Assembly: GCF_004010195.1 (NCBI RefSeq)
Contig: NC_057749.1
Coordinates: forward strand, 19,360,432-19,424,105
Reading direction: 5' to 3'
DNA from: Chiloscyllium plagiosum
Taxonomy: Eukaryota
Length of the DNA: 63,674 nucleotides
Both the position numbers and the translations under genes were made by a program. Numbering within the stretch: position 1 is the first letter of the stretch; each line of letters starts with the position of its first letter. Below, in pieces: positions 37,150 through 59,543 of the stretch. The notes beneath the pieces were generated by a model, which ran no database searches, was not told the origin of the DNA, and was given only the letters and a program-made list of their open reading frames with translations.

Positions 37150-37336
37150 ACAGTATATGAAACTGCAGAACATTTGTGCTTTTGTCAAAATCTGTGACTC
37201 TTTGCAAACATCAGTCCTGTACTGACCAGGAGTTAATTATTTCTGACCTTGCATGACTGATTTGAGTTTTGGGGTGCCTGATAGTGATTTTGACCTGGCT
37301 GAGAACATGGTGGTGTCTGTTTGCTTTCCCCAACAG

Positions 37337-37488: not shown

Positions 37489-37866
37489 GTAAATATTGGA
37501 AAAGGACTAGCTGATCATGTTTTAAAAAAATAATTCATTAATGACATTGTAGTGTACAATTTACTGTAAAATAATCTTCAAATGTGGCATCGATTCAAAA
37601 CCAAAGTGTTTGTGTTTACTCCATCACCCTAACAGCTTCTTTCAGCTTGTTTAGTGATTGTGGTTTGAGCAATAAACTTCACGAATTTTGTCAGTGTTAC
37701 TATGTGGTGGTAACACACTTTGGGGGCTTAAATAGATTTTTTTAACCTGGTAAGTGAGAAGATCTGTCGGTGAAATACAGTGGGCACACCCACACAATGG
37801 ATGCTTTAACCCAGTGAGGGAAATGAATAGTTTGTACACTGAACCATGGATGTTTCTCCCCACTAG

Positions 37867-37970
37867 GCAGAAGACCGACAGAATGCTTTGGTAGCTCGGT
37901 TGTATGAGTCACATGGTAGCACCGTGGTCACATGGTTGCATACTTCACTGCCTGTTAAACAAGCAATCTG
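37867..37970 (+). CDS. MAN2C1: MAN2C1 penultimate exon: AEDRQNALVARLYESHGSTVVTWLHTSLPVKQAI(W)
   Basis: ctccccactag acceptor and TG|gtaagt donor; motif RLYE.HGS. Confidence 0.94.
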
Positions 37971-38053
37971 GTAAGTGGCTCTCCCAGTGCTCATGAGTCT
38001 AGTGTGTGAATGTTGTACTTTGAAGATTTTGGTGCAGACACCCATTAGAAATA

Positions 38054-38261
38054 CAGGTAGTTATTCTATAACGCAATGGTTACATTCTTGTGCAACACCA
38101 TATGATAGAAAAATCGCACTTAGAAACAGCACTTAAAGTATTGGCAATGTAATCGTGTTATAGCCAACACACATTTTAAAAGATCGCTATTTAGAAACAG
38201 TGTCCCCAATTTGTCACTCATGTTACAGTGAATTCATGTTAACGATGGACGTGTTACAGCA
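38054..38261. mobile_element. Probable Tigger/pogo-like MITE with its right end cut by a LINE
   Basis: TA followed by CAGGTAGTTATTCTATAACGC; partial reverse complement cgtgttacagca just before the LINE tail; internal subterminal repeats. Confidence 0.45.
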
Positions 38262-39357
38262 CATAGTGTCCTACAGCAGGGAAGACAGGCCCTTCAGCCC
38301 AAACTGGTCCATGCTGACCAAAATGTCCGTCTATGCTAATGCCATTTCCCTGCACTTGGCCCATATCCTTCTAAACCTTTCCTATCCTTGAATTTGTCCA
38401 AATGCCTTTTAAATGTTGTTAAGTACCTCGCGTCACCACTTCTGCTGGCAGCTCATTCCATATGTGTACCACTCTGAGTAAAAAGGTTGCCCCTCAGGTT
38501 TCCCTTTCATTCTTTCCGTCCTAACCTTAAACTGATTCCCTCTAGTCTTCGATTCCCCAATTTTGGGAAAAAGACTGAGTGCATTCACCCTATCCCTACC
38601 TCTCATGATCTTATATACTTCTATTAGATTCCCCCCCCTGCTCTCCCCCAACCCTTGAGTCCTGACAACATCCTCGTAAATTTCTTCTGCACTCATTCCA
38701 GTTTAATAAGATCCTTCCTATAGCAAGGTGACCAAAAGTGAATACAATACTCCAAAGTGCGGACTCACCAATGTCCTGTACAAATGCAATGTAACTTCCC
38801 AACGTCTATACTCAGTGCCTTGACTGATGAAGATCAGTGTGCCAGAAGCTTTCTTCATTTCCCTGTCTACCTGTGACTCCACTTTCAAAGAACTGTCCGT
38901 CTGAATTTCAAGGTCTCTCTGTTCCACTATACTCATTAAGGCCCTAACATTCACCAAGGAGCTCCTCTGTTGATTTGACTTTCCAAAATGCAAGACCTCA
39001 CACTTATCTATATTAAACTCCATTTGCCATTTCTCTGCCCACTTCCTCAGCTGATCATGGTCCTGCAATTTCTGATAGCCTTCCTCACTGGGCATGATAC
39101 TGCCTCTTTTAGTGTCATCAGCAACCTTACTAATCATGCCTTGTACATTCTCATCCAAATCATTGATATAGATAACAAACAGCAATGGGCCGAGCACCGA
39201 CCCCTGAGGGACACCACTAATCACTGCAGCCCTTCTTGAATGAGGGTATAACATTTGCTACTCTCCAGTCTTCCTATGGTTAACAATGATGCAAAAATAT
39301 CAGCCAGGGCCCCCGCAATTTCTTCTCTAGCCTCTTGCAGTGTTCTTGGATCTATCT
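38262..39357 (-). mobile_element. CR1/HER1 LINE fragment
   Basis: SGVPQGSVLGPLLF, ADDTK and PRTL.EAREEIAG; 3' stem-loop. Confidence 0.88.
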
Positions 39358-39359
39358 GG

Positions 39360-39511
39360 ATTTGTATATCTTCATTTAATAAAGGACCTTTTGTGACCTC
39401 AGGACATTCCAAAGCACTTTGCAGCCCCGGAAGCACGTTCGGTTGAAATGTTGTTGTTAATGTAACATGGGACATGTAGCAGCCAGTTTTGGCAAAGCAA
39501 GCTCCCACAAA
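39360..39511 (-). mobile_element. DeuSINE-like (SacSINE1/AmnSINE-type) fragment
   Basis: gacctcaggacattccaaagcacttt...gcagcca...agcaagctcccacaaac resembles the Deu-domain as I recall it. Confidence 0.5.
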
Positions 39512-40772
39512 CATGGCCACAGGTGAGGTGCTGGAACAGTGGAGGTTGGTTAATGGTGTGCCATTATTTAAGAAAGGTCTGCAAGGAAAGGCCAGCGCCC
39601 AAAGACTAGTGATCCTAATGTCAGTGGTGGGTAATATGTTGGAGGAGATTCTGAGAGACAAGATCTACGTTCATTTGGAAAGGCAAGCATGACTTTGTGT
39701 GTGGGAAATTGTGTCTCACAAATTTGAGTTTTTTTGAGAAGGTAACCAAAAAGATAGATGAAGACAGAGCAGTAGGCGTTATGCACGTGGACTTTAGCAA
39801 GGCCTTCAGCAATGTTCCGCATGGTAGACTGATTAGTAAGGTTAGATCATATGGAGTCCAGAGAGAGCTTGCCAGTTAGATACAAAATTGGCTTGCTGGT
39901 AGGAGATAGGGGATTGTTGTTCAGAGTGGATGTCTGTGACCAGTGGTGTGCCACAAGGATTAACGCTAGGTCCACTGCTTGTCATTTATTTTCTCATCCA
40001 AATTGTTTATATAAGAAGCATGCTTAGTAAGTATTTGGATGACACCAAACTTGGTGGTATAATGAAAAAAAAAAATCGAAGAGTACAACGGGATCTTAAT
40101 GAAATAGGCTGAAGAATGGCAGTTGGAGTTTAATACAGATAAATACGAGGTAATCAGGGTAAGACTTACACAGTTAATGGTAGGATCCTGGGGAATGTTC
40201 TAGAACACAGAGACCTAGAGGGTCAGATGCATACTTCATTGAAAGTGGTGTCACAGAGAGACAGGGTGGTGAAGGTGGTGTTTGGCACACTTGCCTTCAC
40301 TGGTCAGAGCACTGAGTACAGGAGTCGGGATGTCATTTTATGGCTGTACAAGGCCACATTTGGAGTACTGCGTGCAGTTCTGGTTGCCTTGCTATAGGAA
40401 GGATATATAGAGGCTGGATAGGTTGAGTTTTTTTTCCCCTCCAAGAGTGTGAAGGGTGACATTAGCGAGGTTTGTAAAATCATGAGGGGCATAGATAAGG
40501 TGTTTTCTCCAGGATAGGGGAATCCAAAACCAGAGGGCATAGATTTAAGGTGAGGGGAAAAGATTTAAAAGGGGCAACACACAGAGGGAAACATATTTGG
40601 AATGAGCTGCCAGAGCAAGTGGTAGAGGCGAGTACAATTAAACATTTAAAAGACATTTGGATTAGTACATGGATAGGAAAGGTTTAGCTGGATATGGGAT
40701 TAGTTCAGTTTAGGACACCTGGTCAATGTGGAAGCTGGGCCAAAGGGTCTGTTTCTGTGCTGCATGACTCTG
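39512..40772 (+). mobile_element. Degenerate HER1/CR1 LINE RT to 3' end
   Basis: W..ANVVPLFKKG-like, DFSKAF, SGVPQG and DDTK remnants; 3' tail. Confidence 0.85.
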
Positions 40773-40800
40773 CAACAGCAGGTTTTAGATTCTGAGTGGG

Positions 40801-41480
40801 TAAGAATCACACAACATCACGTTATAGTCCGACAGGTTTACTTGGAAGGATTAGCTTTTGGAGCGCTGCTCCTTCATCAGATGGTTGTGGAGTCTAAGAT
40901 CGTAGGACACAGAATTTATAGCAAAAGTGATGTAACTGAAATTATACATCGAAAATGACCAGGATTGTTTGTTAAGTCTCTCATCTTTTAGAATGTGTAA
41001 ATTTGTACTTATGAAATGACATTTTATTTTGCTAAAAACTACAAGAGTCCATGTAAATTTCTGTAAATCCCTTTTTTTAGATTAGATCAGTCTGAACATT
41101 GGGTCACAGACAGTCTCACACCTTCAGTGCAATATCTGAGTCAACATGGCACCTATTGTTAAATTTCACTTGAGAATGTAACTTAAAGAAAGTTCTGCAA
41201 TTTACATATGAAAGAATTGAAACCAACATACCCATTCTAAAAGTTGAGAGACTTAACACCTCAATCCAGGTCTTTTTTCAATATATATTTGCAGTTACAT
41301 CACACTGTAAATTTTTGCTATAAATTCTGTGTCCTATGATCTTAGACTCCACAACCACCTGATGGAAGGAGCAGCGCTCCGACAGCTAGTGCTTCCAATT
41401 AAACCTGTTGGATTATAACCTGGTGTTGTGTGATTTTTAACTTTATACACCCCAGTCCAACACTGGCACCTCCAAATCAT
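40801..41480. mobile_element. Long inverted-arm Penelope-derived element (family B)
   Basis: About 200-bp inverted arms, each with CTGATG(G)AAGGAGC..GCTCC..AGCTA; terminus ccccagtccaacactggcacctccaaatca shared with the copies at 29640 and 47414. Confidence 0.8.
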
Positions 41481-41801
41481 AAGAATAGAATGTTTGTTAT
41501 ACTAAATGAATTTGTTTTGTTTTGACCATCTACCAGACTATAGGATATTCTAATCAAACAACATGGTATATTAGCATCCTGTCACCCAGACTAAGCACGT
41601 AACTGCAACCAGTTCAGATTGATATAGTGAAAAAAAGTTTGCAAATTCATAATTCTCACCTTTATTCTTATGCAGTTTATGCAACTGACCCTGCATTTTA
41701 ATTCCAAACCTGTCATTATTAATGAATATGCTGCTTACTCCATGGGCTCCCCTTGCTGTCTGATAACTGAAGACTGAACGGTTATTTCTGCTGTCTTGCA
41801 G

Positions 41802-41913
41802 GTGTGATCTCCTGGAACAACCCATGACAACCAAGCCTCTCTCCATCACTGACTTTCAGATCCAGCTTTCCTTCACTCCATTCCAGATCCGTTCCCTACT
41901 GCTCACGTTCTGA
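41802..41913 (+). CDS. MAN2C1: MAN2C1 terminal coding exon: CDLLEQPMTTKPLSITDFQIQLSFTPFQIRSLLLTF*
   Basis: gtcttgcag acceptor; CDLLE and F.PFQ..SLLL C-terminal motifs; TGA stop at 41911-41913. Confidence 0.94.
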
Positions 41914-42069
41914 GCTATCCTTGTCAAAACTGGGCCTCATACAGGATTGCTATTAATAAGTTTCTTTTTAAATTATCATTGTGTTGTATTTAGGAACTAT
42001 TTCAATCAAGCATACTGTAGCAAATGAAGTGTGTTATTTAATGAAATTACCAACACAAAACACTACTGA

Positions 42070-42075
42070 ATTAAA
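42070..42075 (+). terminator. Candidate MAN2C1 polyadenylation signal (ATTAAA)
   Basis: ATTAAA about 160 nt after the stop, with UGUA motifs upstream; an alternative AATAAA lies at about 43138. Confidence 0.35.
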
Positions 42076-42644
42076 AGGTATTTCTTGATCATTCCTTACA
42101 CTGTTTACACTAGAGTGCGAGTTGCTAGTTTTCACATATGACTGAAGGTAGAATGTTAGGGTCTCAGCAGCAGCAACAACAGATATTATACAGCAGTTTT
42201 GACATCGTAAATTGGATCAAGCTGCCATCAAAAACTAGTGAGAGACTCGGAAGGGTGAACAAAACGTTGTTCTAAGGTGAACTTTAAGCAGTATTTTGAT
42301 GAAGAAATTTAGAAAGGGAATGATAGAGTGTAGGGCCTGAAGGCAACGGCCACAGATGGAAGGCACAGAGTATTTGACGTAAAACACCAGAATGGGTGAA
42401 GCACATCGGGTTGTGGAGCATTGTAGAAGATTGCAGGGACAGGGAGAGACTTTAATAGCAGAATGGAAATGTTAAATTCATGGCCAGCAAGCCTGGGAGT
42501 GAGATATGACTGGGACTGATGAGAGTTAAAATTTGGCTTCCCATATTTTATGTAAATTTACAGAGGGTATAAAATGGAAGACTGGCTAGGGGAATGTTGC
42601 AAGAGTCCAGTCTGCGCTTAACAGTATGTGGATTTCAGCAGCAG

Positions 42645-42861
42645 TTGTGTTTGTTGTGAGAAAAGCACTGCAGGTCAGGCAGCATCCGAGGAGCAGGAAA
42701 ATCCACATTTTGGGCCGGAGTCCTTCATCGGGAATGATGAAGGGCTCAAGTCTGAGATGTCGATTCTCCTGTTCCTCAGATGCTGCCTGACCTGCTGTGC
42801 TTTTCCAACAACACATACTTGACTCTGATTTCCAGCAGTTGCAGTCTTCACTGTCTCCTAA
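42645..42861. mobile_element. Palindromic Penelope-derived family A element
   Basis: 14-bp TSD GATTT(C/T)AGCAGCAG at 42631-42644 and 42862-42875; inverted arms. Confidence 0.85.
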
Positions 42862-43729
42862 GATTTTAGCAGCAGACAGGCTGGGGTAGAGATGGGTGAT
42901 AAGGCACAATCCATAAACTGTTCCTTTATTTTAGCTGTTGACCACATCTCAATGATCAGAACAAATACATGGGAAATACTTTCTATTAGAAAATATTTGT
43001 ACAATTCACCAGACCGGGACAAAAGTCTGCCATCAGGAGACTTCCCTCCAGTTTGTTAAAACATACACATGGCAAACTGGTTTCTAAAGATCTATTTAAA
43101 GTCAGTAAATACAAACCCTGTTCAGAATGATTAGTGGAATAAACATTTTTTTGTAATTATGCAAAATGAATGAGTAAATACACTTTGCCAAAAATCAAGA
43201 TTGTATAGAGAAGAATGCATCAACAATCCCCATTCTCAAGGAGACATCATGGTGCACTTAATCTGCTCAAGACTTGTAATTTGCACTTGATTCACATACC
43301 CTATCACAAATATATTAGGGTACACTGATCAAATATGTCTCTACAGTGAGGGAAAACAAGTCATTTTAGCCTCCTAGTTGGAATATATTGAGTCACAGAA
43401 CCTGTTTCACACAAGCTAGGGGAATATCAGGAGATAACTCAACAAAGCAGGAAAAAAAAGGTGGAAGAAAATTGGTGTGTTCCGAAAAACCCAACTTATT
43501 CCATGCAACAGACTGTGTTATCATTGAGATTAATCAGGTCAATTCCAATCACTGACTGTTTGCTGGAATTAACAAATTATTAAGTTGGGCAATGAAGGAA
43601 AAGGCTTCTCTGCTCTAGGCCTAGGTAAAAGGAATAAATTTAACTGCTGGTACGTCATTTCCCTTATTTACATTTAGCTTGTATAGTTAGTACTGCAACC
43701 AGCTAGAGATATGGAAATCAATGCAGGTA

Positions 43730-44070
43730 AACCAGGTTTGATACAGCATAAATAAGGTTAACAGCAAAGGTCTTTTCCCAAGGTGGATGTGTACAAAACC
43801 ACAGGCTGTATTTTTAAGGGCAGAGGAGAAAGATTTAGTAGGGATCTGTGGGGCAACTTTTTCACACACAGGGTGGTTTGTGTGTGGAATGAACTGCCAG
43901 AGGAAGTGGTGGATGCACTTACAACATTTAAAAGACATTTGGATAGATGCATGAATAGGAAAGGTTTGGAGGGATAAGGGCCTAACTCAGGCAGGTGGGA
44001 TTAGTTTGGGAAACCTGGTCAGTACAGATGAATTGGACCGAAGGGTCTGTTTCTGTGCTGTATGACTCTT
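43730..44070 (+). mobile_element. CR1/HER1 3' fragment
   Basis: FFTHRVVCVWNELPEEVV and 3' stem-loop tail. Confidence 0.85.
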
Positions 44071-45354
44071 TGGTCCATTCCTGACATTTCTTTCCTGAAA
44101 TAAATGTTGATTTGACTGGGGTTTTACCAACTAGTTATTACTTCTGCTAAATTGGAGCGATGGCAAACCACTTCATGTAGCCTGCATGTTAGTGGTGTAC
44201 AATGCAGTGTTACATAAACATTGCATGGTCGCCAATGTGGCGATACTGCAGTTGTTTCCATTTCATTGTACAGATTACCGCAAAGAAAACAAGCTGAAAT
44301 CTCAAAGACTGCTGTGAGCTGGCCAAGATCCATCAGGGGAGTTGCAACTCAGTTTTTAAAAAGTCAAAGTATAATGTTAAAATAACTTTTATCCAGAGAG
44401 GCCACATTAGCTGCCAGACACTTTAAGGCCCAGATTTAGATAAGTACACACAAACACGTAGACTTGATGATGACATGATGTTTGGTTTTACTGCTACCAT
44501 GACTAACTGCAGCAGTCATTGCTCTTTTACAAACGAAGTCAGGGGCACATCTTCGGGCATTAAAGGATTTATGAAACAAGTTACTCAAAGCCAATGGAAT
44601 AACTGGGCCAAGAACATCAGTGTATTTATGGTGTTATGCTATCAAAATATGTGTAAAATGGTCATTAATTTTTGACCAAATCCAATGGAAAAGGCACATT
44701 TTTGGAATACACCATTTCTTTAAGGTAATGAAACATAACAGCCTCTTTGACAACACTCATATGCTCCACTTAATTGGCATAAATGAAAGCTCAGGAAACA
44801 ACAGCATAAGAAGAATTATGGTTGTCAGAAATCCCAAGTGCCCTGTGTCATGGGTGATGGATGCCCCTAAACCACAGAGAGCGAACAGGAGCATAACAAA
44901 AACAGACAGTTGTCCATCAACCACAGGCAAGTAATCAAAGAGATGGGGCATGAAGTAAAGCCATAGATAACATTTATAAATAAGAGTTTTGTGTATAAAA
45001 GATATACACACAAAACAAGCCAGATTGAAAAATCTAAAAAGCTGAAAGGATTAGTGGTTTAAACAGTGGGGGAACATTTACAGTACAAGCCAATTTGCCA
45101 TAAAATGCAACAGGTTAAAGATGAACTCTCTCCAATTAATTACAAGTGCTTTAAGTTGACGAAATGCCTCGACTATAAACCAGTGTTACTCTGACAGCCA
45201 GCTGTTGCAGGTTTGTTCAGTGGGTAAATGATCAGAAAACTGTTGGGGGGCAGTTTTGTTACTAAAGGCAGGCTGTAGTGAATAGGTGCAATAGATCCTG
45301 ATATGGGTCAATTTGGGTGGAAATAAGGAATGGCAAGTGAAAGTCATCACATTT

Positions 45355-45600
45355 GGGGGTTGGGGCTTTCCTCCGGATGCTCCAATTTTCTCCCACAGTC
45401 CAAAAATGTGCAGGTTAGGTGAACTGGACATGCTAAATTGTCCATAGTGTTGAGGGATATGTAGACAAGGTGCATTAGTCAGGGGTAAATGTAGAGAAAT
45501 AATAGGGTAGGGGAATGGGTCTGGGTGGGATACTCTTCAGGGGTCAGTGTGGACTTGTTGGGCCAAAGGGCACGCTTCCACACGTAGGGATTCTATGATA
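45355..45600 (+). mobile_element. 5'-truncated HE1-like SINE
   Basis: V-domain and 3' tail match the other copies. Confidence 0.8.
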
Positions 45601-47413
45601 TAATAAAATGTGAAATAGGATTGATAAGCAACCTCATATCAGTATCCTCAACTTAAATGTGGACAATTATACATATGAAGAAAGAGTTGTCTAAAGCTAA
45701 CTATGAAATTAGGGGAAGGTTAGTGGAAAAACAATGCAGACCTTTAAATGAAATGTTCATAATGGTCAGCAAAAATTATGGTCAAAAAAGGATCTGACGA
45801 GAAGGATGAACCAGCTGTGGTTAACAAAAATGGTTAAGGAGAGTAACCAATCAAACACAAGTGCATACAAAGTGATGGAAAACAGTGGTAGGCCAGAAGA
45901 TTGGGAATTTATTTTTTTTAGGAACCAGCAGTGAATAACTAAAAAGATACCAAAACACAAATTGATTAGGAAAGTAAATTGGCAAGAAATATGAAAATAA
46001 ATTGTGTTTCTACAAGTATATAAAACAAGCAGCTAAAATGAATGTTGGACCCTTGGAGGATGGGACTGGGGAATGGATAGTGAGGGGAAAACAGGAAAAT
46101 GGCAGTAATTTAAACTGATATTTGCACTGTTTTGAATGGTGGTGGACTCTTATAAACACCCCAATGCACTGATGGGAGGAAAGATTTTGTAGCAGCCTCG
46201 GTCACAAAGGGCAAAGTATTTTGAAACTAAGGGGATTGAAAGGAGGAGTGTTGCCACAACTTAATGGCCTACAGCCACAAGCTTTAAAAGGACATAACTG
46301 TAGGGATTGGCCAAAATATTCTACAACTCATTGGATTCTAGGAGGGGTTCTAGACTATTGGAAAACTACAAATGTAATGCTCCCACTCAAGAAGTGAAAG
46401 AACAGAAAGCAGTGCCAGTTAGACTGTTCAGAGTCAGATGTACAGCATGGAAACAGAGCCTTCAGTGCAACCCATCTATGCCAACCAGACATCACCAACC
46501 CAATGTAGTCCCACCTGCCCACATCCCTCCAAACCCTTCCTGTTCAGATGTCCATCCAGCTGCCTTCTGAATGTTGCAATTGTACCACCCTCTACCACTT
46601 CCTCTGGCAGCCCATTCCACATGTGCATCACCCTCTACATGAAAATGTTGCCCCTTAGGTCTCTTATTTTCCCCCTCGCATCACCCCTGGGAAAAGAATC
46701 ATCTATTTACCCCATTCATGCCCCTCATAAACCTCTATAGGGTCATCCCTCAGTCTCCAACGCTCCAGGGAAAACAGTCACAGCCTATTCAACCTCTCCT
46801 TAAAGCTCAAATCGTCCAACCCTGGTAACATCCTTGTAAACCTTTTCTGAATCCTTTCAAGTTTCACAACATCCTTCTGATAGGAGGGAGACTAGAATTG
46901 AACAAAATATTCTAAAAGTGGCCTAACCAATGTCCTGTACAGCTGCAACATGTCCTCCCAACTCACGTACTCAATACTCTGACCAATAAAGGTAAGCATA
47001 CCAAACACCTTCTTCATTATCCTATCTACCTGCAACTCTACTTCCAAAGAGCTATGACCCTGCACTCCAATGTCTCTTTGTTCAGCAATACTCCCTAGGA
47101 TCATTAGCAGCAAGAATAGGCTATTCAGTAACTCAAACCTACCTTACTCTTCTTTAAGATAATGCTGGATTTGCCCAAGGTCTCAACTCTTCTTCCACAC
47201 CAGCTCCACGTAATTCCTAACTCCTTAATGTTTCTTAAACATTGTGATATAGCCCACAACTCTGAGGTAAAACATTCCAGACATTCACTCCACAGGAAAT
47301 CTTTCACATCTCAGTTACAAAATAAGGGACATGCATTTAAAACTATATTACTTAATTCAAGATTTCCCCAAGAGTAGAAATAAATGCTAATGAATAAAGG
47401 CTTCATTTGTTTA

Positions 47414-47616
47414 TGATTTGGAGATGCCGGTGTTGGACTGGGGTGTACAAAGTTAAGAATCACAACACCAGGTTATAGTCCAACAGGTTTAATTGGAAGC
47501 ACACTAGCTTTCGGAGCGACGCTCCTTCATCACCTGATGAAGGAGCGTCGCTCTGAAAGCTAGTGTGCTTCCAATTAAACCTGTTGGACTATAACCTGGT
47601 GTTGTGTGATTCTTAA
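47414..47616. mobile_element. Near-perfect palindromic Penelope-derived element (family B)
   Basis: Perfect 13-bp TSD CTTCATTTGTTTA at 47401-47413 and 47617-47629; arms of about 82 bp around a 2-3 nt centre. Confidence 0.92.
47531..47565 (+). ncRNA. Minimal type I hammerhead ribozyme motif
   Basis: CAC-CUGAUGA-A-GGAGC(GUC)GCUCU-GAAA-GC-UA-GUG: stem I CAC/GUG, stem II, conserved core, palindromic AGCU in place of helix III, and a CUA cleavage triplet. Confidence 0.65.
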
Positions 47617-49529
47617 CTTCATTTGTTTAGTCATTCTTGTCAATTCAGTCCCTTCATCCCAGGAATGAGCCTAGCTAATCTCTTTTGAACCACCTCCAAT
47701 ACTATTATATCTTAAAAACGAAGATCAAAACTCTAGACAACTCAATGTGTAGCCTCTCCAACATCTGGCATAATTATAATATTCCAAATTTTGTTTCACA
47801 GACAAAAAAAACACCTAGATGCCTCCATGTTAAACTTTCTTTTTCAAAGAAGTCTTTCCATTAAATAATGGTTTGGCTTTGATGTTTCCTGCTTTCTGGC
47901 AAATATTTGCCCATTCACTCAACCTCTCTCTCCCTTTGCAGATACCTTACATCCTCACCACAACATGCCCTCCTTCCTATTTTTGTCATGGACCAATTTG
48001 GTCAGATCTTAGAGTCTACTCCCTCAAAATTATTAATGTTGATAGATATTGATACAGTACTAAATAGTTGAGGCCCAAGAATGGATTTTTGTGGCACTCT
48101 ACTAGTTACACCTATCTAAGCTGAAAAAGACCAATTACCTTTGATCCACTGTCCATGCTGATACAGAATACAAAAATTTTAATAGCAGACCATCTGGAAA
48201 ATAGCAACAGGGTTGGACATATGAAAAGAAAGTTCTGCTTGATGATTGCTAGCAGAATTGAGTACAAGAGTGATAAGGATGTTTCTGACTTGGACAGAGT
48301 GCAAAGGTTTACCAAGTTTGCCAGGACTAACAAATGAAAACAGCCTGGATTAGATTAAGAATATATTAACTGGAGTTTAGAAAAATGGGGTGTGTGTGTT
48401 TGTGCACGTGCGTTTGTGGGGGTAGGGGAGTCACATAGAACTCCATGAACTTCTAACAGACCTAGACAGGGCAAATGCAGGAAGGACGTTTCTGAAGACT
48501 GGGGAGTTCAGAACTAGGGTTCACAGTCTAAGGTAAAGGAATGAGCCATTTTGAACAGAGAAATTCCTTCACTTAACAGAGTGATATATCGGTGAAACTT
48601 TCTTCTACAGAAATCAGGCTAAAATGTTAAAGTCTAATGATGCTCAGAAAAATATAATGACAGAATGGGTATCCCAAAGAGAAATGATCAACAGGGAAAT
48701 GTCACTATCTTCACTTGAAGGTATTTAATCTAAAGGTACAGATCACCTTGAAAAGTTGAATAAAGTAGCATGAATTTTTGAATAGCCAGAAAATGAGTAA
48801 AATCAGGAGTGTCAATCTGCACAATTCTTGATAAGGTTTCAAGCAACATATTGAGATTCAATGAAACAAATCAATGGGACAAATTTATTTTCAGAAATTT
48901 TAATCTTTGACCCTAAATTCCTTTAACTTCAAGGACTTGCTCCTGTATTTTGCAACCAAGGAGTTCGGTTCACATCATCTTGTACCACCAAGTGCTTTTG
49001 AAGGACTTCCCAACTGATGACAGGAGAATTCTTCTTGAAACGTTGTAACCATCACCATTTTGGGTCAAGTATAGCAAATGATTGCAGCACTGTATCACAA
49101 TGTGACTACAAACAGGATATTAAACATGAGGGGGGAACTTGACAGTCGTTGATCTTCAGATTGGAACATCTCAAATGGTCCTGGTGTCCAACGCACAACC
49201 AGTCACTATTTATCAAATACAATGAGTTACCTTTTCATCAACCAAAAATGATGAATATGTGTCTCAAGTATGTAAATAATCAAGTACTGACACTACTTTA
49301 TTCACTTCTGTATGAGATGTGTGCCTTGTCACTACTGAGAGAAAGTATTATGAGTCTCACAAATGTCTAACACTAGCCGATAATAGTTCGGATAGTTGTA
49401 CCATTCAATAATATCTGGAAGTTATGCATTTGCTTCTTTAGAATTATAATCAAAAATTGTTTCCCCAAACCACCAGGCACCAACCACTATGCTAGAACCA
49501 CACTGGGGAATTATCTTTGTTTGTAAATG

Positions 49530-52500
49530 TCAGAAATACACACTTTTTCCATTTATTTAGAAGAATGTTAAAGATATTACATTACTGCAAATGACAGAAA
49601 CTACTCTTCTAGGCTGTTCACTGATTAGAATGAGAAATGGCAGTGATTAGAAAATGACTGGTTCGATGAACCAATTTACAATAATGGAATGGACACAGTC
49701 CAAAGTGACAATGCACTGACCCCTTAAAGAAATGGGTATACCTTTTTACTGGCTTTCTTTTAATGAAGAATCAAGTTTGTGCAATCTTTCAGTGATTTGC
49801 TATAGTCCAAGAATTGCTCATGCCCTCCCCACCCCTCAGGGATTTGCATGATAGTAAGTGTACCTCAAAATTATTGAACCCAATGATTCAGTTTACAATT
49901 TATCTTGACATTGGCTTATTTTGGTTTTCACTGAGCATCTGACCCACACACAAATCCAATTGGGTTCATTCGTCAATACACATCACTGAGGAATCACAAC
50001 ATTCTGAATAGAAGAAAATCTGAATTTCTGAAATAAAAGCAATTGTGGAAATGAAGATGTAAACCTGAAATAGGCCAATCCCAGTTTAACACTCAACGTC
50101 CCATCAATGAACTATTTCACCTGGTCTTATATCAGACACGGTCCAGAGTAGAGTAGTTCTTCACTGTTCTTGTATGGGACACTAGTAATTTGTTGCCTAC
50201 CCCTAATTATTCTTGAATTCAGTTGCTTGATGAACTATCGCAGAGGGGCGAGAAGAATCAACCACACTGATATCGATCTGCAGTCACATGTAGACCAGAT
50301 CAGGTAAGGATGGCAGATTTCTTTCCCTAAAAGGCATTTGTGAACCAGATCAATTTCAACAGCAATTGAAGCTAGTTTCATTATCACTGTTACTGACACA
50401 GCTTTTCAATTCCAGATTTACATCAATTGAATTTAGATTCCTTGCCATGGTGGGATTTGAACCCTTGTCCCTGGATTATTACACCAATATCATTACGACA
50501 CCATCATCCTCCCTATCTATCCCCAAGGGTGTAATGGATATGCAGCTAGATTTCAAATTTTTGTTGCAGACCTCCAGCATTTCAGAGCTCATGAGATCCC
50601 CCAAAACAATTTCAGCTTCTACCCTCAATCCTCCTCACCGAAGATGGATCGCCACAGATTAATAACAAATTTGTTTTGGAAGTAACACCTCTGGATTACT
50701 TGGTTTTTTCCCGGTTTTCAACATCAAACAAAATAAAGCCTTCAAGAACAAAGTTACTTTTCCAACCATCCTAGCTTCTACACTTTCCCCAACATCCCAA
50801 TTTGATTATTATGGTTCATAAACAAGACCTTGCTGAGGGGGCAACAGTAAATCGACTCAATTACAATGACAGCATGTTACACAAACCAGTCGCCACCTTT
50901 AATATGGATCTATAAATAATTACATTGCAGCTTTAACACTGATGCTTTCAAGAAATTACATGGTAATTTTGCGAAGACTAGTTTTTCTTTATACAAAACA
51001 AATGCTTCCTTTCACAGTCAGCCTCTGACAAGCAGTAGTGTGTCCTTATGCTTTTGCCTGGGTATACTGAACCTAATACAAATACACAACCTACCAGTTT
51101 TCTGTGAAAAGACTTTCAGATCCTAGTGCAACATTTCTGTTCTCAGAACTCGCTGTGAGCTCCACAATCAGAAAGCTTGATGTTGACTTTCAAACTGATC
51201 TCAGTCAGTGTTGCTCGGTTGCTCCCGTGTAAAGGAGATTTGCTGATTGAAAACATTGAATGTCATACAATCAGCCTCTTGTTCCTTCAATCACATTGGC
51301 CTAGTTGGTTTCTCCCATACCCAGCTGTGAATTTCGAGGAAGCCACAATACCAAAAAAGACGGAGCCAGGGAATTAAGATAAATCATCTCAAAGGTGTTC
51401 GCACCAGTGATTCCTTGCTTTCAAGTAAATTCCCCACTTCCCAAAGTACAAGATGAACTTTGTACAGATCAACATCACTGCCAGAGAGTAATACAAGCCC
51501 CACAATGTCCAACACTGATGACTAGCCCTAGCCTATAACAGAGTTTGAATAGTTGTGTTATTAAGCAGTATGTCAAGGTTGTGTAACTGCTCATTTCAGA
51601 AACAGCTCACAACACAAAGCACATTGGAAATACTTTTCCAAGTAGTGTATATATACCATTTATAGTTCAAGTGACTGGCCTGAATCAGTCCCCACAGAAT
51701 GGGCTAAAAACATTATGAATGTAAAGGATTAATTAAAATCTGGCTTCCTATTGAACACCGAAGGTTTCAACATTTCCCATTCCTTGTCAATTCACTTCAC
51801 CATCATAACACAGAAGTATAAAAGGTGGATGTTTCCTTTGCAGCTTTGGAGAGATTTTGGAGAGATCAGTAGCAACAACTTATTGGATGGCGTAATACTT
51901 AACACCCCCCCCCCTCCCCATTTAAGAAAACCCAAAAACGCAAGAGCCCCATTTAAATGTGTTTGCACTGCCTTTAACACAGCATATTAGCTACTAATAC
52001 AATTATCCCTTCTAATTTTTAACACAGCACAAAAAGGAAGGCTTTTTGTAAGTTTAAAAAGCAGCTTCCACCCAGGTTCTTACACTTTCCCTCCTATTAT
52101 ATGCCCCTGAATCACAATACTGTACATGCTGTATGCCAGAAATCATACAGCAAGAAGCTCTTTACTATCCCATTGGCAGGTTTGCAGAAAAGGAGCTTAC
52201 AGACAGGAAAACTTGATTTTCAGGTGTTGAAACAAAATGACACTCTGGTCCAGTGCTGAAAATACGTTCCAAGTGATATCTAGTTAGTTTGGAGTCTGAA
52301 CGTTCACCTGAACAAAACTCTTTAATACTCAGTATTTAATTATGTTTGTGTGGGCAGTCTAGTCATTAGGTTGGGAATGGAGATCCTGGCCAAGATATAG
52401 TGTTCAACCCCTCACCCAGTGGTCCCAGCTAACAATTCAGGGCAGGCAAGCTCTAGCCTCACGCACTCAATCACAGGCTACAGTCAGTCCTTCTGGTTAG

Positions 52501-52764
52501 GAAGGTTACATCCCAGCGTCCTGCACTGTCCAATAAGAAAGTTACTCCTTGATCACTTAGAGGCAGCTATGAGTGGCAACATTACAACAGTGAAGGATGT
52601 GATGAAATGAGGAATGGACTACTTGAAGACTGTTTTGATGTCACAGCTACAGTGAGGAAAGTTTTTAGCTGCTCCAAGCCTCCCCACTGCCCCAATGTCA
52701 AAGGTCCAATTGCTTCAGTTTTCATGCTAAGGTGCTGAGATGCTACAGAGAATGAGGTCTCCCC
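49530..52764 (-). other. Probable SNX27-family 3' UTR, at least to the AATAAA at 49557-49552
   Basis: Repeat-poor AT-rich sequence after the stop; minus-strand AATAAA followed by a GU-rich tract; the true end is not established. Confidence 0.4.
50185..50510 (-). mobile_element. Old tRNA-derived SINE (a second copy lies at about 56855-57155)
   Basis: Two homologous copies (gtcacatgtag.ccaga..ggtaagga; gccatggtgggat.tgaac) with a B-box-like ggttcaaatccc on the minus strand. Confidence 0.6.
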
Positions 52765-52815
52765 TCAGGACAGCGAACCTCCACTACTTCTTGCTGCTGC
52801 TGCATGAAAAATATT
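52765..52815 (-). CDS. SNX27: SNX27-family terminal coding exon: NIFHAAAARSSGGSLS*
   Basis: ctccttttatctcttgcag acceptor; starts NIF...ARS like the human SNX27a tail NIFQMARS; TGA stop at 52767-52765; followed by repeat-poor UTR-like sequence. Confidence 0.75.
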   Translation of the reverse strand, partial: NIFHAAAARSSGGSLS

Positions 52816-54982
52816 CTGCAAGAGATAAAAGGAGAGTCTATGTTAACTGGCTGAACACGATTGACATTACTCATAAAGCTAATGTCAAGGAGTTTGATTT
52901 TATGCTGAAAGATACAGGCTTTTAATGATAAGACCTCCCAAAGCACAATGTAAAATAACACTAAGATCTTGGAATCTATATCCAAACCATTTTAATCAGC
53001 AACTCGCCCCGCACCCTCCACCCAAGCTGCTGAACCTTAATGGGGGTAGTTTGATGGACAATGGAAATTGTCCACTGCCCTACCCAAGTAGGCAAGTCCC
53101 ATGCGAGAGCCAAATAGTAACATTATTTCAATGGAGGATGCTATAAAAGAAATGGTCATGTTTTCTACTAATAGCCAGCCCAAAAACTAAGCGACTCAAC
53201 TTGAGACAACTATCCCATTACAAACAAAAGAGGGATTGGATTTGGATTAGCTGAAGGTGAATTCCTGTAATTTATTGATGCCAGCGCTTCAGAAAAGCTA
53301 AACTCAGAGACCGACAGTAAAGCAGATTCCTGAAATACCCATGAGGCAGACACTGGACCTCGCAACAGCAAGGCGACCAGACGTGACCAGATAATTTAAT
53401 TCTAAGTGAGTCATATGTTGCACTGGAAATCTAATCCCAGAATGAGCCAGTAGATAATGCACAGGCCAGGCCTATCTGACACCAGAGCTCCCAACTAAAC
53501 AGGCGAAGTCAAGAGTTCGATGAGGTTTGGTTATGCCGGAGAGGTGATTAGGTGCGGAAAGAGTGGGATAGGAAGTGAAAAGAAAAACTTCTTCCAGATG
53601 TTCAATCAGGTTCCCTTTAACAATCCGTGCACAGGACAATCAAACAAAACTTACCGCTTGACATCTGCCCTCTGTTTCTCTAGTATTCTCTTTAGCCCCA
53701 CCCTACAACGGTGTCTTGATTTACTTTGCCCTCAGAGGAGACACATTTTCTCTTTTTCATAACCTAATTCATACCTATTTACATCATTTATATTTCTTTC
53801 ACTTCAATTAGCAACTCCTCTGGCTCGTGCTCTGGGCCTCCATACCAAATGTCCCCCTCACTCCTCCTCTGTCTCCGTCAACAGCTTACAGTTCTGAAGT
53901 CATATCAGACTTGAAACACTAACTCGTTTCTCTCTCAACAAATGTTGCCAGACTCGCCAAGTTTCTCCAGTATTTTGTATTTGTTTCTGATTTTCAGGAT
54001 CCCAATATTTTGCTTTTATAAAAAATTCCTTGTTGCCTCGCTGAAAAAAGTTTGGAAGTTGCATCATTGTGACATTACACTGTTCAATCTTACCTGCTCA
54101 CTTTAAGATTCACGTCAATTGGATAAACTACCATAGGTACACTTTTATACTTCCTAATTTATCTCAGGAGACTTGCTCACATAATAAACACCTTAACATC
54201 TAGTGCTCAAATGCATTTCAAGGAATGGAAAAACAGATCACTGCAGGTGGATAAAATCAGCTGCGGATATGACAGACAATTAACAGATTAAAAGATTAAG
54301 ATGAGAATTGGCAGTAGGTACAACACTCAAGTACAAAGGCAGTCGGCTCAATTTAGCAAGGTTGTGGTTTTTCTGTGAATATTATTTACAGATGGAGCCC
54401 AGTGCATGAGGGGAAGGAATGATTAGCAGTTTATTCTGGCTCTCAGGGTGGACCAGCATGGGAGGAATTTGAAAAGGAAAATGAAATCATCTTTACAGAT
54501 TTTCAACTGGAACCAACAGTTGAAGGCTGCTGCTTGGAGCTGCTTCTGCCAGGTGACCTGCTATCTTGGTGCCACACTATCTTGTGCCATCCTCACATAG
54601 CCACAATAGCCACTTTTGATATCTGTCATCCAGCTACATCCAAGTTGAACCTTTTCTCTATCTTGCTCTCTAACAAAGATTTCTGCAGCTTCTCAGCTCT
54701 GATCAAACATCCAAAATATTGACACACTTTTCTGATCGTCACTGTTGAGTTTTTTTTTAAAAGCTCTTAGAATTTCAATCATCATCTTTCATGGCCTCAG
54801 TGTGCGATTTTTAACATCCGTCTTATCATCCACATTTCAAGGCCTCTATAGTTTTGGTTAGATATGTCACCGGCATCATCATCATGGGTTACTTTGCTGG
54901 AGATGCAGGTCCAGAACATCAACAATTCGTTCAAAAAACTACCGGGATCACATTAGACAAAAGCTCCTCAGTTCCTGATTCT

Positions 54983-55299
54983 TAGAGTCATGGAATCCTT
55001 GCAGTGTAGGAACAGGTCCTTCGGCCCAACAAGTCCACACCGACCTTCCGAAGAGTAACCCACCCAGACCCATTCCCCTACCCTATTACTCTACATTTAC
55101 CCCTGACTACTGCACCTAACCTGCACACCCCTGAACACTATGGGCAATTTAGCATGTCCAGTTTACCTAACCAGCACATCTTTGGATTGTGGGAGGAAAC
55201 CCACGCAGACATGGGGAGAATGTGCAAACTCCGCACAGAACTCACAAGGCCTGGATTGAACCCGGGTCCCTGGGCCCGTGAGGCAGCAGTGCTAACCAC
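54983..55299 (-). mobile_element. HE1-like V-SINE
   Basis: tRNA head remnant, V-domain and LINE-like tail. Confidence 0.88.
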
Positions 55300-56519
55300 C
55301 AACTCAGATCGAACAGTTGGGCCCAAACCGGAGGTTGAGGGCCACTTGGTCAAAGCCGCTGGTAAACGCAGGCTCTAAGCTGAAACAAGCCTATCCGAGT
55401 CTATTTCTGAGGCAACACTCAATTTTGTTTGATTAAGAGGACTTAAAGGCTGTTCACTCAATTGTGGCAATTCCTAAAGTCTAACACCAGTAACTCAAAG
55501 TATATGCAAAATCATTGAGAGAGATTTAAAGAACAAATTTATTTTGTTTTAAATCCGTTAGCTGGAGGTGGCTATTGCTAGCTGGGCTAGTATTCATTGC
55601 TAATCCACAATTACAATTGAGAAGGTGATGATGAGCTGCCTTCTTGAACTGTTGCAGGGAGACCAACAGTGTTGGGTAGAAAGGAGATCCATCTCATTTT
55701 CAGAAATATATGTGGGCAGGAAGAATTATGATACTTTTATACACGAACGATATTAGGCAGGATTTAAGCATGAGACGGTCTATCGGAGTTGTTCAACTGG
55801 AACAAGTTGAAACCCAATGAAACAAACCAAAGAACTATGGATGCTGGAAATCAGAAACAAGAACAGAAATTGCCGGAAAAAACTCTGGCAGCATCTGTGG
55901 AGAGAAAACATGTGCACAAAAGCAGGGAACTATCGTGCACAACCAACATTCCCTTTAAAGGTGCATATGTGGCAATGCAGCAATCTTAAAGGGACCATCC
56001 AGTACAACAAACAGACCACATCCAACAAAGATTAAAGGGAACATTGTGATCGATATCCCCATCAATAAAAACCTGCCAATTTCAGTCTTGAAAGCTTCCA
56101 CTGACCCCCCAGTATTGAATCTTTGGGGAGAGATTTCTATTACTCTTGCAAGTGTTTCCTGATTTCACTCCTGAATGGTTTGACTCTGATTTTCAGACTG
56201 TAACACTTGTCATTGATTTCTCCACCAGAAGAGACTATTTACCAGTGTTGAACCAAAGAAAATTCATTCCATTGATCTGATCACCAGCATATCTCCTCCA
56301 AGAGGCAGAAAAGGGCCTCTTCAGAATTACAAGAGACTAATGGAGAACATGGCAGATCATTTGAAAGGCATCACAATCAATAACCTATTATTAATTAAAT
56401 TGATGACGTTAATATTGGCCACTGGTTAGAAGGGTAACTGAACTCAGAGCCACTGACAGTAATATTTGCTCTTCAGTGGAGAGTCCCAAGCATGCTTGTT
56501 AAGGGGCAAATCGGTAACT

Positions 56520-56581
56520 GGACAACCCTGGGACAGTTTGGGACAACCCTGGGACAGTTTGGGACAACCCTGGGACAGTTT
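56520..56581. repeat. Perfect 21-bp tandem repeat, about 3 copies (GGACAACCCTGGGACAGTTTG)
   Basis: Units start at 56520, 56541 and 56562. Confidence 0.92.
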
Positions 56582-56645
56582 CATGCCAGCCTCACCAGCG
56601 ACATCTAAGTATTTGTACGCACTCCTCCAGCCCCCATGTCCATAC

Positions 56646-56696
56646 CATGTGGTTGGTGCTATTCCTATTATCTTCATCATTGCCAACGTCTTCCAT
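56646..56696 (-). CDS. SNX27: Putative additional or cassette SNX27-family exon: MEDVGNDEDNRNSTNHM
   Basis: Strong polypyrimidine acceptor (ctctcactttgtttctgcttctcccacag) and ATG|gtatgg donor; 51 nt, phase 0/0, no stop; fits in frame between flanking exons. Confidence 0.65.
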
Positions 56697-57385
56697 CTGT
56701 GGGAGAAGCAGAAACAAAGTGAGAGTGACAGGATGGGCAGTGGGAGATAGAGGGTGGTGAAGACAGAGGTTAAAACACTCATTACTTTAAAAACTGTCAA
56801 GGATGATAAACCGGGCAATTACAGGCAAGTCAGTATTATGTCAGTGGTGAGGCCAGCATTATTGCCAACCCCTAAATGCCCATGAACCTACTGGCTCTCC
56901 AGGCAATTTCCGAGGGCAGTGAAAAGTCAAGTACATTGTTGTGGGTGTGGAGTCACAAGTCAGTCAGACTGGGTAAGGATATATGTCCTTCCCTCAAGGA
57001 TGTTAGTTCACCAGATGGTAGTTTTGGCATCTAGTTGAGACTAGCTTTCAATTCCAAATTTTTTACAACTGAACAGCTGCCATGGTGGGATATGAACTCT
57101 CACTGATCAGAGCTGCTGGATTAATTATCCAGTGACATTACCACTACCCTACCATCTCTCCACATCTGTACGAGGGATATCAGAGTTGCAGTCAAAACAA
57201 AGAATATCTTCACTTCAGCCAAAACAGAGACACTCTGGCCTACTGGCTGAAGATAAAGATGCCAGTTCTTAATGGGAGCGAAGCTTGTTCCATGTACTCT
57301 TATTACATGATCAGGCAAATCTTGGGGCAAAGGACAAATCAATAGCACAGTCTGTTTAGACAAACAAGTACCTAATATGGCTTAC

Positions 57386-57445
57386 CTCTTTCCTCCATCT
57401 CAGCTCACACAGAACACGCTCAAAACATTCGTGCATGTAGTTAAA
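57386..57445 (-). CDS. SNX27: SNX27-family exon: [20 protein letters not shown]
   Basis: tttccatttgtag acceptor and GAG|gtaagc donor; 60 nt; matches SNX27 [20 protein letters not shown]. Confidence 0.93.
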
Positions 57446-58224
57446 CTACAAATGGAAACAAAAAATACAGTATCACAGAAACATGCCAGAGCACTCAACC
57501 AGCAGTCAAATAGTTTACAGAAGTGCAGTTGCTAAAAGTGTGTTTAAAAGTGGCAATTCCAGCCCCACCTGCCCACGTCCTCAAAGGAACAGTGAGGGGA
57601 GGGGATACAGTGGGTCAGGTTACCACATCCTAAGCCAGGCCCAGGACATCCCTAGTACGTTCTACCTGAGGTACATGACAGACAACAGCATAGATGAATT
57701 AAACATCTCACTGTTCAACTGTTCAGCATTTGCACTGCACACTTAAGGACTTGTCCTGAATTCCTTCCTGTTTTGAGCAATGCAGCGGCACTGCATCAGC
57801 CCATACCTGTGAAATGCTCCACATCCCTCCAGGTCAGAGAGAAGAACTTTTTAACAGCAACTCAGATTCCAAAATAAAGGAATTGGATTTACATTTGAAA
57901 AGGAGAAGCTGGGAAGGGCTCTGAAGCAAGCGCAGAGGTCCAAACCTTAGTGGACAATTCTCAAAGACCCACAATGGTCATCTTCAGTGCTGTGTAAATC
58001 TAAAGGAACAAACATCAGTAGATAAAGTACACTTCCTAACATCAGTACCTCCCCACGTGGCTTACAGCTAATGCAACATGGTAATAAAAACCTGGTCATT
58101 TTATTTTTTAAATGTGGTATCAGTTACAGATAAACATTGGCTCAGACACTGGAGCAGACCCCTCCGCTTTTCTTCGGACTTGGGTCTTTTACCAATTCCT
58201 GAGAGGGTATACAGATTTGATATC

Positions 58225-58368
58225 TTGCTCAAAAGGCAGCACCCTTACTGCAGCATTCCCACAGAACATCACAAAAGGGTCACCCCAGTCTTAATTTTCA
58301 AGTTTCTGAATTGGGGCTTGAATCCTTCAGTCCCAAATCAGATGAGAGCTTCACTCACTAAACCCTGG
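58225..58368 (-). mobile_element. Old DeuSINE-like 5' (tRNA) fragment
   Basis: gcagcattccc...ggggcttgaatcc resembles the SacSINE1-type head; heavily diverged. Confidence 0.4.
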
Positions 58369-58422
58369 CAGATTCCAACTAAACCACCCAATGAAGAAAC
58401 AGCTTTGTGTTGCCAATGGCAA

Positions 58423-59345
58423 TAGAGTCAGAGTCATAGAGATGTACAGCATGGGAACAAACCCTTCGGTCCAACCCATCCACACCGACCAGATATCCCA
58501 ACCCAATCTAGTCCCACCTGCCAGCACCCAACCCATATCCCTCCNNNNNNNNNNNNGTCTATTTATCCTATCCATGCCCCTCATAATTTTGTAAACCTCT
58601 ATAAGGTCACCCCTCAGCCTCCGACGCTCCAGGGAAAACAGCCCCAGCCTGTTCAGCCTCTCCCTGTAGCTCAAATCCTCCAACCCTAGCAACGTCCTTG
58701 TAAATCTTTTCTGAACCCTTTCATGTTTCACAACGTCTTTCCGATAGGAAGGAGACCAGAATTGCATGCAATATTCCAACAGTGGCCTAACCAATGTCCT
58801 GTACAGCCGCAACATGACCTTCCAACTCCTGTACTCAATACTCTGACCAATAAAGGAAAGCATACCAAACCCCTTCTTCACCATCCTATCTACCTGCGAC
58901 TCCACTTTCAAGGAGTATGAACCTGCACTCCAAGGTCTCTTTGTTCAGCAACAGTCCCTAGGACCTTACCATTAAGTGTATAAGTCATGCTAAGATTTGC
59001 TTTCCCAAAATGCAGTACCTCACATTTATCTGAATTCCACTACATCTACGACTTCTCAGCCCATTGGCCCAGATCCTGTTGTAATCTGAGGTAACCTTCT
59101 TCGCTGTCCACTACACCTCCAATTTTGGTGTCATCTGCAAACTTACTGACTGTACCTCTTATGCTCGCATCCAAATCATTTATGTAAATGACAAAAAGTT
59201 GTGGGCCCAGCACCAATCCTTGTGGTACTCCACTGGTCACAGGCCTCCAGTCTGAAAAACAACCCTCCACCACCACCCTCTGTCTTCTTCCTTTGAGCCA
59301 GTTCTGTATCCAAATGGCTAGTTCTCCCTGTATTCCATGAGATCA
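58423..59345 (-). mobile_element. Young 5'-truncated HER1/CR1 LINE ending about 70 nt from the SNX27 exon donor
   Basis: High similarity to 15620-16700; SKFADDTK and LEYCMQFWSP. Confidence 0.93.
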
Positions 59346-59414
59346 ATAGTTCTGCCTGCCCCTCCTGCAGGAAGTACTAAAGTCAGCCGAGAAATGCAAG
59401 ACAGAGTTACTCAC

Positions 59415-59543
59415 GTAAGGAGTGAAGATTTTCACCCAGCGAGGTTTCTTTTCACCACGGATGTACTCAAAGCAGAATGCCATCCCCTCCTCATCTGTAT
59501 CCCACTGGTGCATCTCATCCCATTCAAACATGATTACCTGGTT
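59415..59543 (-). CDS. SNX27: SNX27-family exon (FERM-like domain): [43 protein letters not shown]
   Basis: ttttgttttaaaag acceptor and TAC|gtgagt donor; 129 nt, phase 0; near-identical to SNX27 [35 protein letters not shown]; orthologue versus paralogue is unresolved. Confidence 0.93.

What the first reader, a model, noticed from the sequence alone, without database searches (positions are those of the whole stretch)
52765..59543. SNX27-like gene tail-to-tail with MAN2C1: possible retained ohnologue lost in mammals
Seen: SNX27-type exons converge on MAN2C1, with about 10.9 kb between the stop codons and no NEIL1-like exons recognisable in between. Known, from recall: human MAN2C1 is at 15q24 with NEIL1 at its 3' end, SNX27 is at 1q21, and 1q21-23 and 15q22-26 share paralogue pairs (ARNT/ARNT2, RORC/RORA, CELF3/CELF6, CLK2/CLK3). 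The peptide differs from human at normally well-conserved sites (QR>HQ, A>I, F>L, K>R). Inference: this could be a second SNX27 from vertebrate genome duplication that cartilaginous fish kept.
Basis: partly seen in the sequence, partly recalled or inferred. Interest (0 to 1): 0.75.

Follow-up and report, generated by a model that had tools for sequence, protein, structure and literature searches.

The report
Shark-only second SNX27 gene
Sharks, rays and chimaeras keep a second, intact copy of the endosomal recycling gene SNX27, left over from the jawed-vertebrate genome doubling and apparently lost in bony vertebrates; it is a clear new example of a known kind of shark-retained duplicate.

Summary
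Confirmed. Four clean exons (59543-52765, minus strand) encode the last 96 residues of a bamboo-shark 'SNX27-like' protein, converging on MAN2C1 with 10,851 gap-free bases between the stops. The two genes share a contig in 12 of 14 comparable chondrichthyan assemblies, so this is no scaffolding error. Six sharks and rays carry both this copy and a second SNX27 that groups with bony-vertebrate SNX27 (100/100). A shark-only duplication and simple orthology are rejected (AU p=0.0001, 0.001). Published source data class the congeneric gene as CLG-C alpha1, gar and chicken SNX27 as beta1, and lamprey SNX27 as 1R copy 1. It is therefore the 2R alpha ohnologue, absent from all 188 bony-vertebrate rows retrieved, not only mammals. 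Retromer- and ESCPE-1-binding residues are all kept, so it probably works as an ordinary SNX27 adaptor. The kind is known (19 and 135 shark-retained ohnologues reported), and both copies sit in published tables, but no searched text discusses them. Twists: bony vertebrates kept the beta copy, and the elephant-shark 'SNX27' is this paralogue. The scan had not noted it on other DNA.

The parts
59415..59543 (-). SNX27-alpha coding exon, FERM F3 lobe, 43 codons. It carries the ESCPE-1-binding surface (human I467, F469, Y490, K495, K496, R498, V500, K501).
   Evidence: upstream exons lie beyond the window end (no further tblastn hit)
57386..57445 (-). SNX27-alpha coding exon, last FERM helix, 20 codons
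56646..56696 (-). SNX27-alpha acidic tail exon, 17 codons; RefSeq isoform X2 runs on past this donor
52765..52815 (-). SNX27-alpha last coding exon, 16 codons and TGA; homologous to the long-isoform tail exon of bony SNX27
41914..52764 (.). Interval between the two stop codons, 10,851 bases. It has no N, about 1.65 kb of repeats shared with the rest of the window, and no recognisable coding exon; it holds both 3' UTRs (ends not mapped).
83..41913 (+). 3' part of MAN2C1 (residues about 710-1030). Exon stretches at about 83-190, 1143-1304, 1389-1535, 23236-23343, 30638-30718, 37336-37488, 37867-37971 and 41802-41913 (TGA).

Best explanation
The window holds the 3' end of an intact SNX27 ohnologue made by the jawed-vertebrate genome doubling (2R). 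It is the alpha copy on the chicken-chr10/human-15q-type chromosome (CLG C alpha1). The familiar SNX27 of mammals, birds, gar and teleosts is the beta copy on the chicken-chr25/1q21-type microchromosome. Sharks and rays kept both copies, and bony vertebrates lost alpha early. The protein most likely works as an ordinary SNX27 adaptor: PDZ binds cargo tails and VPS26 of Retromer, PX binds endosomal membrane, and FERM F3 binds the aDLF motifs of SNX1/2 to hand cargo to recycling tubules. Shown: exon structure, two copies, tree, linkage, conserved residues. Taken from published tables: alpha1/beta1 labels. Inferred: loss in bony vertebrates (absence from databases) and function (from residues).
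For: Two copies in 6 named species (Hemitrygon, Hypanus, Cetorhinus, Heptranchias, Leucoraja, Amblyraja), 73-77% identical over the core in the 4 pairs measured. FastTree of 234 rows: the window-type clade has 18 rows, all chondrichthyan, with 0 of 188 bony rows. IQ-TREE with invertebrate outgroups gives lamprey,(alpha,(shark beta, bony)); shark beta + bony 100/100, gnathostome node 92/95 (quick C20 tree 99 and 90). AU rejects alpha+shark-beta (p=0.00014) and alpha+bony (p=0.0011). PMC10972751 source data, OG_6027: C. punctatum Chipu0012038 is alpha1 on chr40, gar (LG24) and chicken (chr25) are beta1, lamprey is 1R copy 1, and no gar, chicken or Xenopus alpha row appears. chiPu_0012038 is the window-type protein and follows MAN2C1 chiPu_0012037. 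PMC10115646 tables: Snx27-1 on Leri_36C (classed C 1alpha = GGA10) near Snupn, Furin, Scamp2; Snx27-2 among Tdrkh, Cdc42se1, Tmem79, Ssr2; both expressed in fins, baseMean 784 and 950. Alpha evolves more slowly: 97-98% versus 83-91% identity in 6 of 6 same-species pairs. L67, L74 and all 11 FERM-surface residues named in PMC9038204 are kept in 8 of 8 alpha rows.
Against: The gene tree alone does not exclude a 1R origin: lamprey+alpha p=0.051 and alpha outside lamprey p=0.108. Outgroups were partial protostome or unnamed proteins, with no amphioxus or hagfish. The careful mixture-model tree did not finish. The beta copy was not shown in the window's own species (no genome held; none among retrieved proteins). 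Absence in bony vertebrates rests on listed protein hits (best 120 of 860; best 120 of 348; best 150), not on genome searches, and no lungfish row was seen. Which skate table gene equals which RefSeq protein was inferred from neighbours, not aligned. The hagfish table labels gar man2c1 CLG O 'beta2', so the MAN2C1 neighbour does not itself mark the alpha1 segment. Transcription in this species was not observed directly.
Confidence: 0.88

Rival explanations
1. It is an ohnologue from the first, pan-vertebrate doubling (1R), or an equally old small-scale duplicate, rather than from 2R.
For: AU does not reject lamprey+alpha (p=0.051) or alpha outside lamprey (p=0.108). 14 of 54 diagnostic columns are shared by lamprey and alpha.
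Against: The best tree puts lamprey outside both copies (92/95), and 18 of 54 columns side lamprey with beta. Published labels give alpha1 and beta1, both from 1R copy 1, the copy lamprey also holds.
Confidence: 0.08
2. It is a duplicate that arose within cartilaginous fishes and was moved next to MAN2C1.
For: It is found only in chondrichthyans.
Against: AU p=0.00014. The other shark copy is closer to mammalian SNX27 (81-88%) than to this copy (73-77%). Intact introns exclude a retrocopy.
Confidence: 0.02
3. It is the single shark SNX27, rearranged, or the adjacency is a scaffolding error.
For: RefSeq names the elephant-shark member plain 'sorting nexin-27'. The second copy was not seen in the window's own species.
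Against: A second copy exists in 10 named species and lies on a different contig from MAN2C1 in 10 of 10. AU p=0.0011 for alpha+bony. No N between the stops. Same contig as MAN2C1 in 12 of 14 assemblies, with consecutive accessions or locus tags in 5.
Confidence: 0.01

Closest known systems
SNX27 of bony vertebrates (human 1q21.3 recalled; chicken chr25, gar LG24; CLG C beta1)
   Same: PDZ-PX-FERM architecture, Retromer hairpin and ESCPE-1 surface, homologous tail exons; about 79% core identity.
   Different: It is a paralogue, not the orthologue, and lies on the alpha1 chromosome. FERM is only 76% identical against 93% for PDZ. Two of four basic RA-lobe residues tested for Ras coupling in PMC3607560 differ: R288 is T and K305 is H.
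Chondrichthyan-retained ohnologues (19 cases in PMC10115646, e.g. wnt6b, cspg5; 135 shark-only ohnologues in PMC13450315)
   Same: A WGD duplicate kept in cartilaginous fishes and single-copy in other jawed vertebrates.
   Different: Here the copy lost in bony vertebrates is the alpha one, although beta segments usually lose more genes. Whether SNX27 is on either list could not be seen.
Teleost snx27a/snx27b
   Same: Two SNX27 genes in one genome.
   Different: Both teleost copies nest inside the bony-vertebrate (beta) clade, so they come from a later duplication (teleost WGD, recalled) and are unrelated to this pair.
SNX17/SNX31 (PX-FERM family)
   Same: PX and FERM domains.
   Different: They lack the PDZ domain (recalled); this protein has it and matches SNX27 structures at E 2e-24.

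Membership tests
SNX27 subfamily | PDZ + PX + FERM(RA) domain order | tested here: met
   Pfam on the full-length RefSeq protein whose last 96 residues equal the window's; only the F3 end lies in the window
SNX27 subfamily | VPS26-binding PDZ hairpin (human 67-79, L67, L74) | tested here: met
   identical in 8 of 8 alpha rows (residues from PMC9038204)
SNX27 subfamily | FERM F3 surface for SNX1/2 aDLF motifs (R437, R438, K439, I467, F469, Y490, K495, K496, R498, V500, K501) | tested here: met
   11 of 11 kept in 8 of 8 alpha rows; 8 of them are encoded in the window
SNX27 subfamily | Actual binding of Retromer, ESCPE-1 and PDZ cargo; endosomal location | not testable with these tools
   needs biochemistry or cell work
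2R ohnologue pair | Duplication older than the shark/bony split | tested here: met
   AU rejects the later-duplication and orthology trees
2R ohnologue pair | Duplication younger than the cyclostome split | tested here: inconclusive
   best tree supports it (92/95) but AU keeps the 1R trees (p=0.051, 0.108)
2R ohnologue pair | Copies on alpha and beta segments of one ancestral linkage group | tested here: met
   read from published tables, not recomputed: CLG C alpha1 versus beta1; skate neighbours fit
Orthologues of human SNX27 | Groups with bony-vertebrate SNX27 to the exclusion of the other shark copy | tested here: not met
   AU p=0.0011; the other shark copy holds that place
Shark-retained ohnologues lost in bony vertebrates | No alpha copy in any bony-vertebrate genome | tested here: inconclusive
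   0 of 188 bony rows and no alpha row for gar, chicken or Xenopus; no genome-level search and no lungfish row

The most novel reading that the evidence does not exclude
The alpha copy is the main, constrained SNX27 of cartilaginous fishes, while their orthologue of human SNX27 is drifting and has been lost in chimaeras. That would be a reciprocal loss between chimaeras and bony vertebrates. The alpha copy would also have a changed RA lobe (T for R288, H for K305) that uncouples cargo recycling from Ras, so that sharks run two SNX27-Retromer adaptors with different regulation.
Probability: 0.2. Interest if true: 0.55.

Novelty: new member of a known kind. Interest (0 to 1): 0.37.

Why it matters
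SNX27 is treated as a single-copy gene outside teleosts; the SNX27 evolution section of PMC9038204 reports vertebrate duplications for VPS26 and SNX1/2 but none for SNX27. Sharks show that the gnathostome ancestor had two, so this piece of the endosomal recycling machinery also doubled. Bony vertebrates then kept the copy from the loss-prone beta subgenome. In practice, the gene that RefSeq calls SNX27 in the elephant shark is the paralogue, a hidden-paralogy trap for phylogenies and for comparisons of shark and human SNX27. The pair offers a natural test of which SNX27 surfaces are dispensable. It does not overturn any model.

Tried and rejected
The window's own genome is not held, so a second locus in this species stays untested. 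Sequencing runs: 24 listed, no RNA holder listed, which is no evidence either way. No reads were laid on the exons, so splicing and 3' ends in this species remain unobserved. The MAN2C1 last exon found nothing in the PDB; a more conserved exon did. The careful LG+C20 tree did not finish; the quick tree and an LG+F+G4 bootstrap tree on 25 of the 39 rows were used. A best-BLAST-hit sorting of 434 proteins was not used as a test, because invertebrate proteins often score best against the slow alpha copy. The attempt to read the length of skate Leri_36C from the tables found nothing. Literature searches for a described shark SNX27 duplicate found none: 0 papers; no listed paper joins SNX27 with sharks. 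Supplement searches were blank for PMC8455134 (12 of 24 files) and PMC11406177 (2 files); that of PMC11979771 was unreadable. Rejected: retrocopy (introns present), pseudogene (open frames, canonical splice sites, 92-97% identity across chondrichthyans), teleost-type a/b duplicate, and NEIL1 in the interval (skate Neil1 lies about 8 Mb from Snx27-1 on the same chromosome). Earlier scan notes by sequence and by words: none.
Full report
Observation. Four minus-strand exons at 59543-59415, 57445-57386, 56696-56646 and 52815-52765 have canonical splice sites, stay in frame and end in TGA. Together they give 96 residues identical to the C-terminus of the RefSeq 'sorting nexin-27-like isoform X1' of Chiloscyllium plagiosum and C. 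punctatum, with 82-93 of 96 identical in five other sharks and rays. The first exon matches solved SNX27 FERM structures at E 2e-24. The plus strand carries the 3' part of MAN2C1: 324 of 324 residues match C. plagiosum, against 322-323 for C. punctatum and Hemiscyllium, with GH38 Pfam and Ams1 hits. The window is therefore from a bamboo shark, most likely C. plagiosum. The stops lie 10,851 bases apart, and the three N runs of the window all fall outside that interval. None of 106 non-repeat ORFs of 38 aa or more in the interval hits Pfam (27 repeat-overlapping ORFs left out).

The adjacency is old. I compared contig lengths and accession numbers of MAN2C1 and the window-type SNX27 in the 14 assemblies where both were retrieved. 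In the other two (C. plagiosum, Hypanus) the SNX27 contig was not displayed, but the accessions lie within 10 of each other. Five have consecutive accessions or locus tags. None was discordant. Rhincodon, Narcine and Callorhinchus could not be compared, and only 15 of 41 members of the main cluster were listed.

There is a second copy. Searching with the full-length protein returned shark and ray proteins only 71-73% identical to it. Their clusters name 10 species, six of which also have the window-type copy. This second copy lies on a different contig from MAN2C1 in 10 of 10 species, often a small or unplaced one (0.13-9 Mb in six species; 170-252 Mb chromosomes in four rays). It was not retrieved for Chiloscyllium, and the window's genome is not held.

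Phylogeny. A FastTree of all 234 retrieved proteins of 430-720 aa puts 18 chondrichthyan rows, Callorhinchus included, in a window-type clade. That clade is sister to 15 rows of the second shark copy plus 188 bony-vertebrate rows (coelacanth, amphibians, amniotes, bichir, sturgeons, gar, teleost a and b), and no bony row joins it. With partial invertebrate outgroups from the representative search, IQ-TREE gives lamprey,(window copy,(second shark copy, bony)): SH-aLRT 90 and 99 in the quick C20 tree of 39 rows, and 92/95 and 100/100 in an LG+F+G4 tree of 25 of them. AU tests on those 25 rows reject a shark-only duplication (p=0.00014) and orthology of the window copy to bony SNX27 (p=0.0011). 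They do not reject the two 1R placements (p=0.051, 0.108). Of 54 columns that separate the copies, lamprey sides with the window copy at 14, with the other at 18 and with neither at 22.

Synteny settles the timing better than the tree, through published tables. In the source data of the hagfish genome paper (PMC10972751; passages, supplement search and one part of file 6 seen), orthogroup OG_6027 belongs to CLG C. C. punctatum Chipu0012038 is alpha1 on chr40, gar snx27b (LG24) and chicken SNX27 (chr25) are beta1, sea-lamprey SNX27 is 1R copy 1, and two more bamboo-shark pieces lie on unplaced scaffolds. chiPu_0012038 is the window-type protein next to MAN2C1 chiPu_0012037. The skate paper (PMC10115646; passages, part 1 and searches of supplementary file 2, which was cut when stored) lists CLG C 1alpha as skate 33+36 (= chicken 10) and 1beta as chicken 25 = gar 24. 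It names Snx27-1 on Leri_36C, 0.5 Mb from Snupn and about 8 Mb from Neil1, with gene-ID neighbours Rccd1, Furin, Lactb, Scamp2 and Cd276. It names Snx27-2 among Lingo2-2, Bnip2, Cdc42se1, Tmem79, Tdrkh and Ssr2. That these sets match human 15q and 1q21-22 is recalled knowledge. One caution: the hagfish table gives MAN2C1 to CLG O and labels the gar gene beta2, so MAN2C1 marks the neighbourhood but is not itself part of the paralogy argument.

How it works. The full-length protein has PDZ, PX and FERM domains. The Retromer-binding hairpin (67-79) and all 11 residues of the ESCPE-1 surface named in PMC9038204 (passages and section 12 seen) are unchanged in 8 of 8 window-type rows. Both skate copies are expressed in fins at similar levels (baseMean 784 and 950), and two unnamed Logan proteins on 2-kb contigs carry the spliced tail. 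The window-type copy is the more constrained one, 97-98% against 83-91% identity in 6 of 6 species pairs, which fits the slower evolution reported for alpha segments. I infer a working endosomal cargo adaptor, probably overlapping the beta copy. The best lead for a difference is the RA lobe. Of four basic residues tested in PMC3607560 (passages seen), R288 is T and K305 is H here; K305A cut H-Ras binding by about 75% in that study. The second shark copy (Q) and lamprey (E) also lack K305, so this may not separate the two shark copies.

Comparison with what is known. The kind is established. PMC10115646 reports 19 ohnologues kept in chondrichthyans and lost in bony fishes (the list was not in the table as held, and the preprint's table could not be seen). 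PMC13450315 reports 135 shark-only ohnologues (passages only; supplements not seen). SNX27 may be on these lists. The gene is annotated in RefSeq, numbered in the skate tables and labelled alpha1 in the hagfish data. No searched text discusses it (supplement searches), though subscription papers are not covered.

Verdict. It is a new member of a known kind. Two features lift it a little: bony vertebrates kept the beta copy, and the elephant-shark 'SNX27' is the paralogue. Interest 0.37.

Noticed in passing
P0130 (Callorhinchus milii XP_042198895.1): The elephant-shark protein named plain 'sorting nexin-27' falls in the window-type (alpha) clade; no chimaera beta copy was among the retrieved proteins.
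   Followed up: partly
P0296 (Leucoraja beta copy): The skate orthologue of human SNX27 is on the longest gnathostome branch and has changes inside the otherwise invariant Retromer hairpin (positions 69 and 73).
   Followed up: no
window 56696-56592, minus strand: The acidic tail exon can run on past its donor to give a second C-terminus. RefSeq lists such an isoform in several sharks, the skate and the chimaera, with a partly conserved start.
   Followed up: partly
window 47450-47619: A near-perfect palindrome (95% self-complementary) lies between the two genes; an earlier scan note calls it a Penelope-like mini element.
   Followed up: no
window 14207-16231: A long, nearly open LINE (CR1-like, label recalled) reverse-transcriptase frame, split by frame changes, lies in the 21-kb MAN2C1 intron; 84-91% similar pieces lie elsewhere in the window, including the SNX27 intron at 58558-59344.
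   Followed up: no
PMC10972751 file 6, OG_1506: MAN2C1 is assigned to ancestral linkage group O but lies in a CLG C context in vertebrates, which suggests an early move into this region.
   Followed up: no
skate Leri_36C: Neil1 lies about 8 Mb from Snx27-1 in the skate, so the NEIL1-MAN2C1 tail-to-tail pair recalled for human is probably not present in elasmobranchs.
   Followed up: partly
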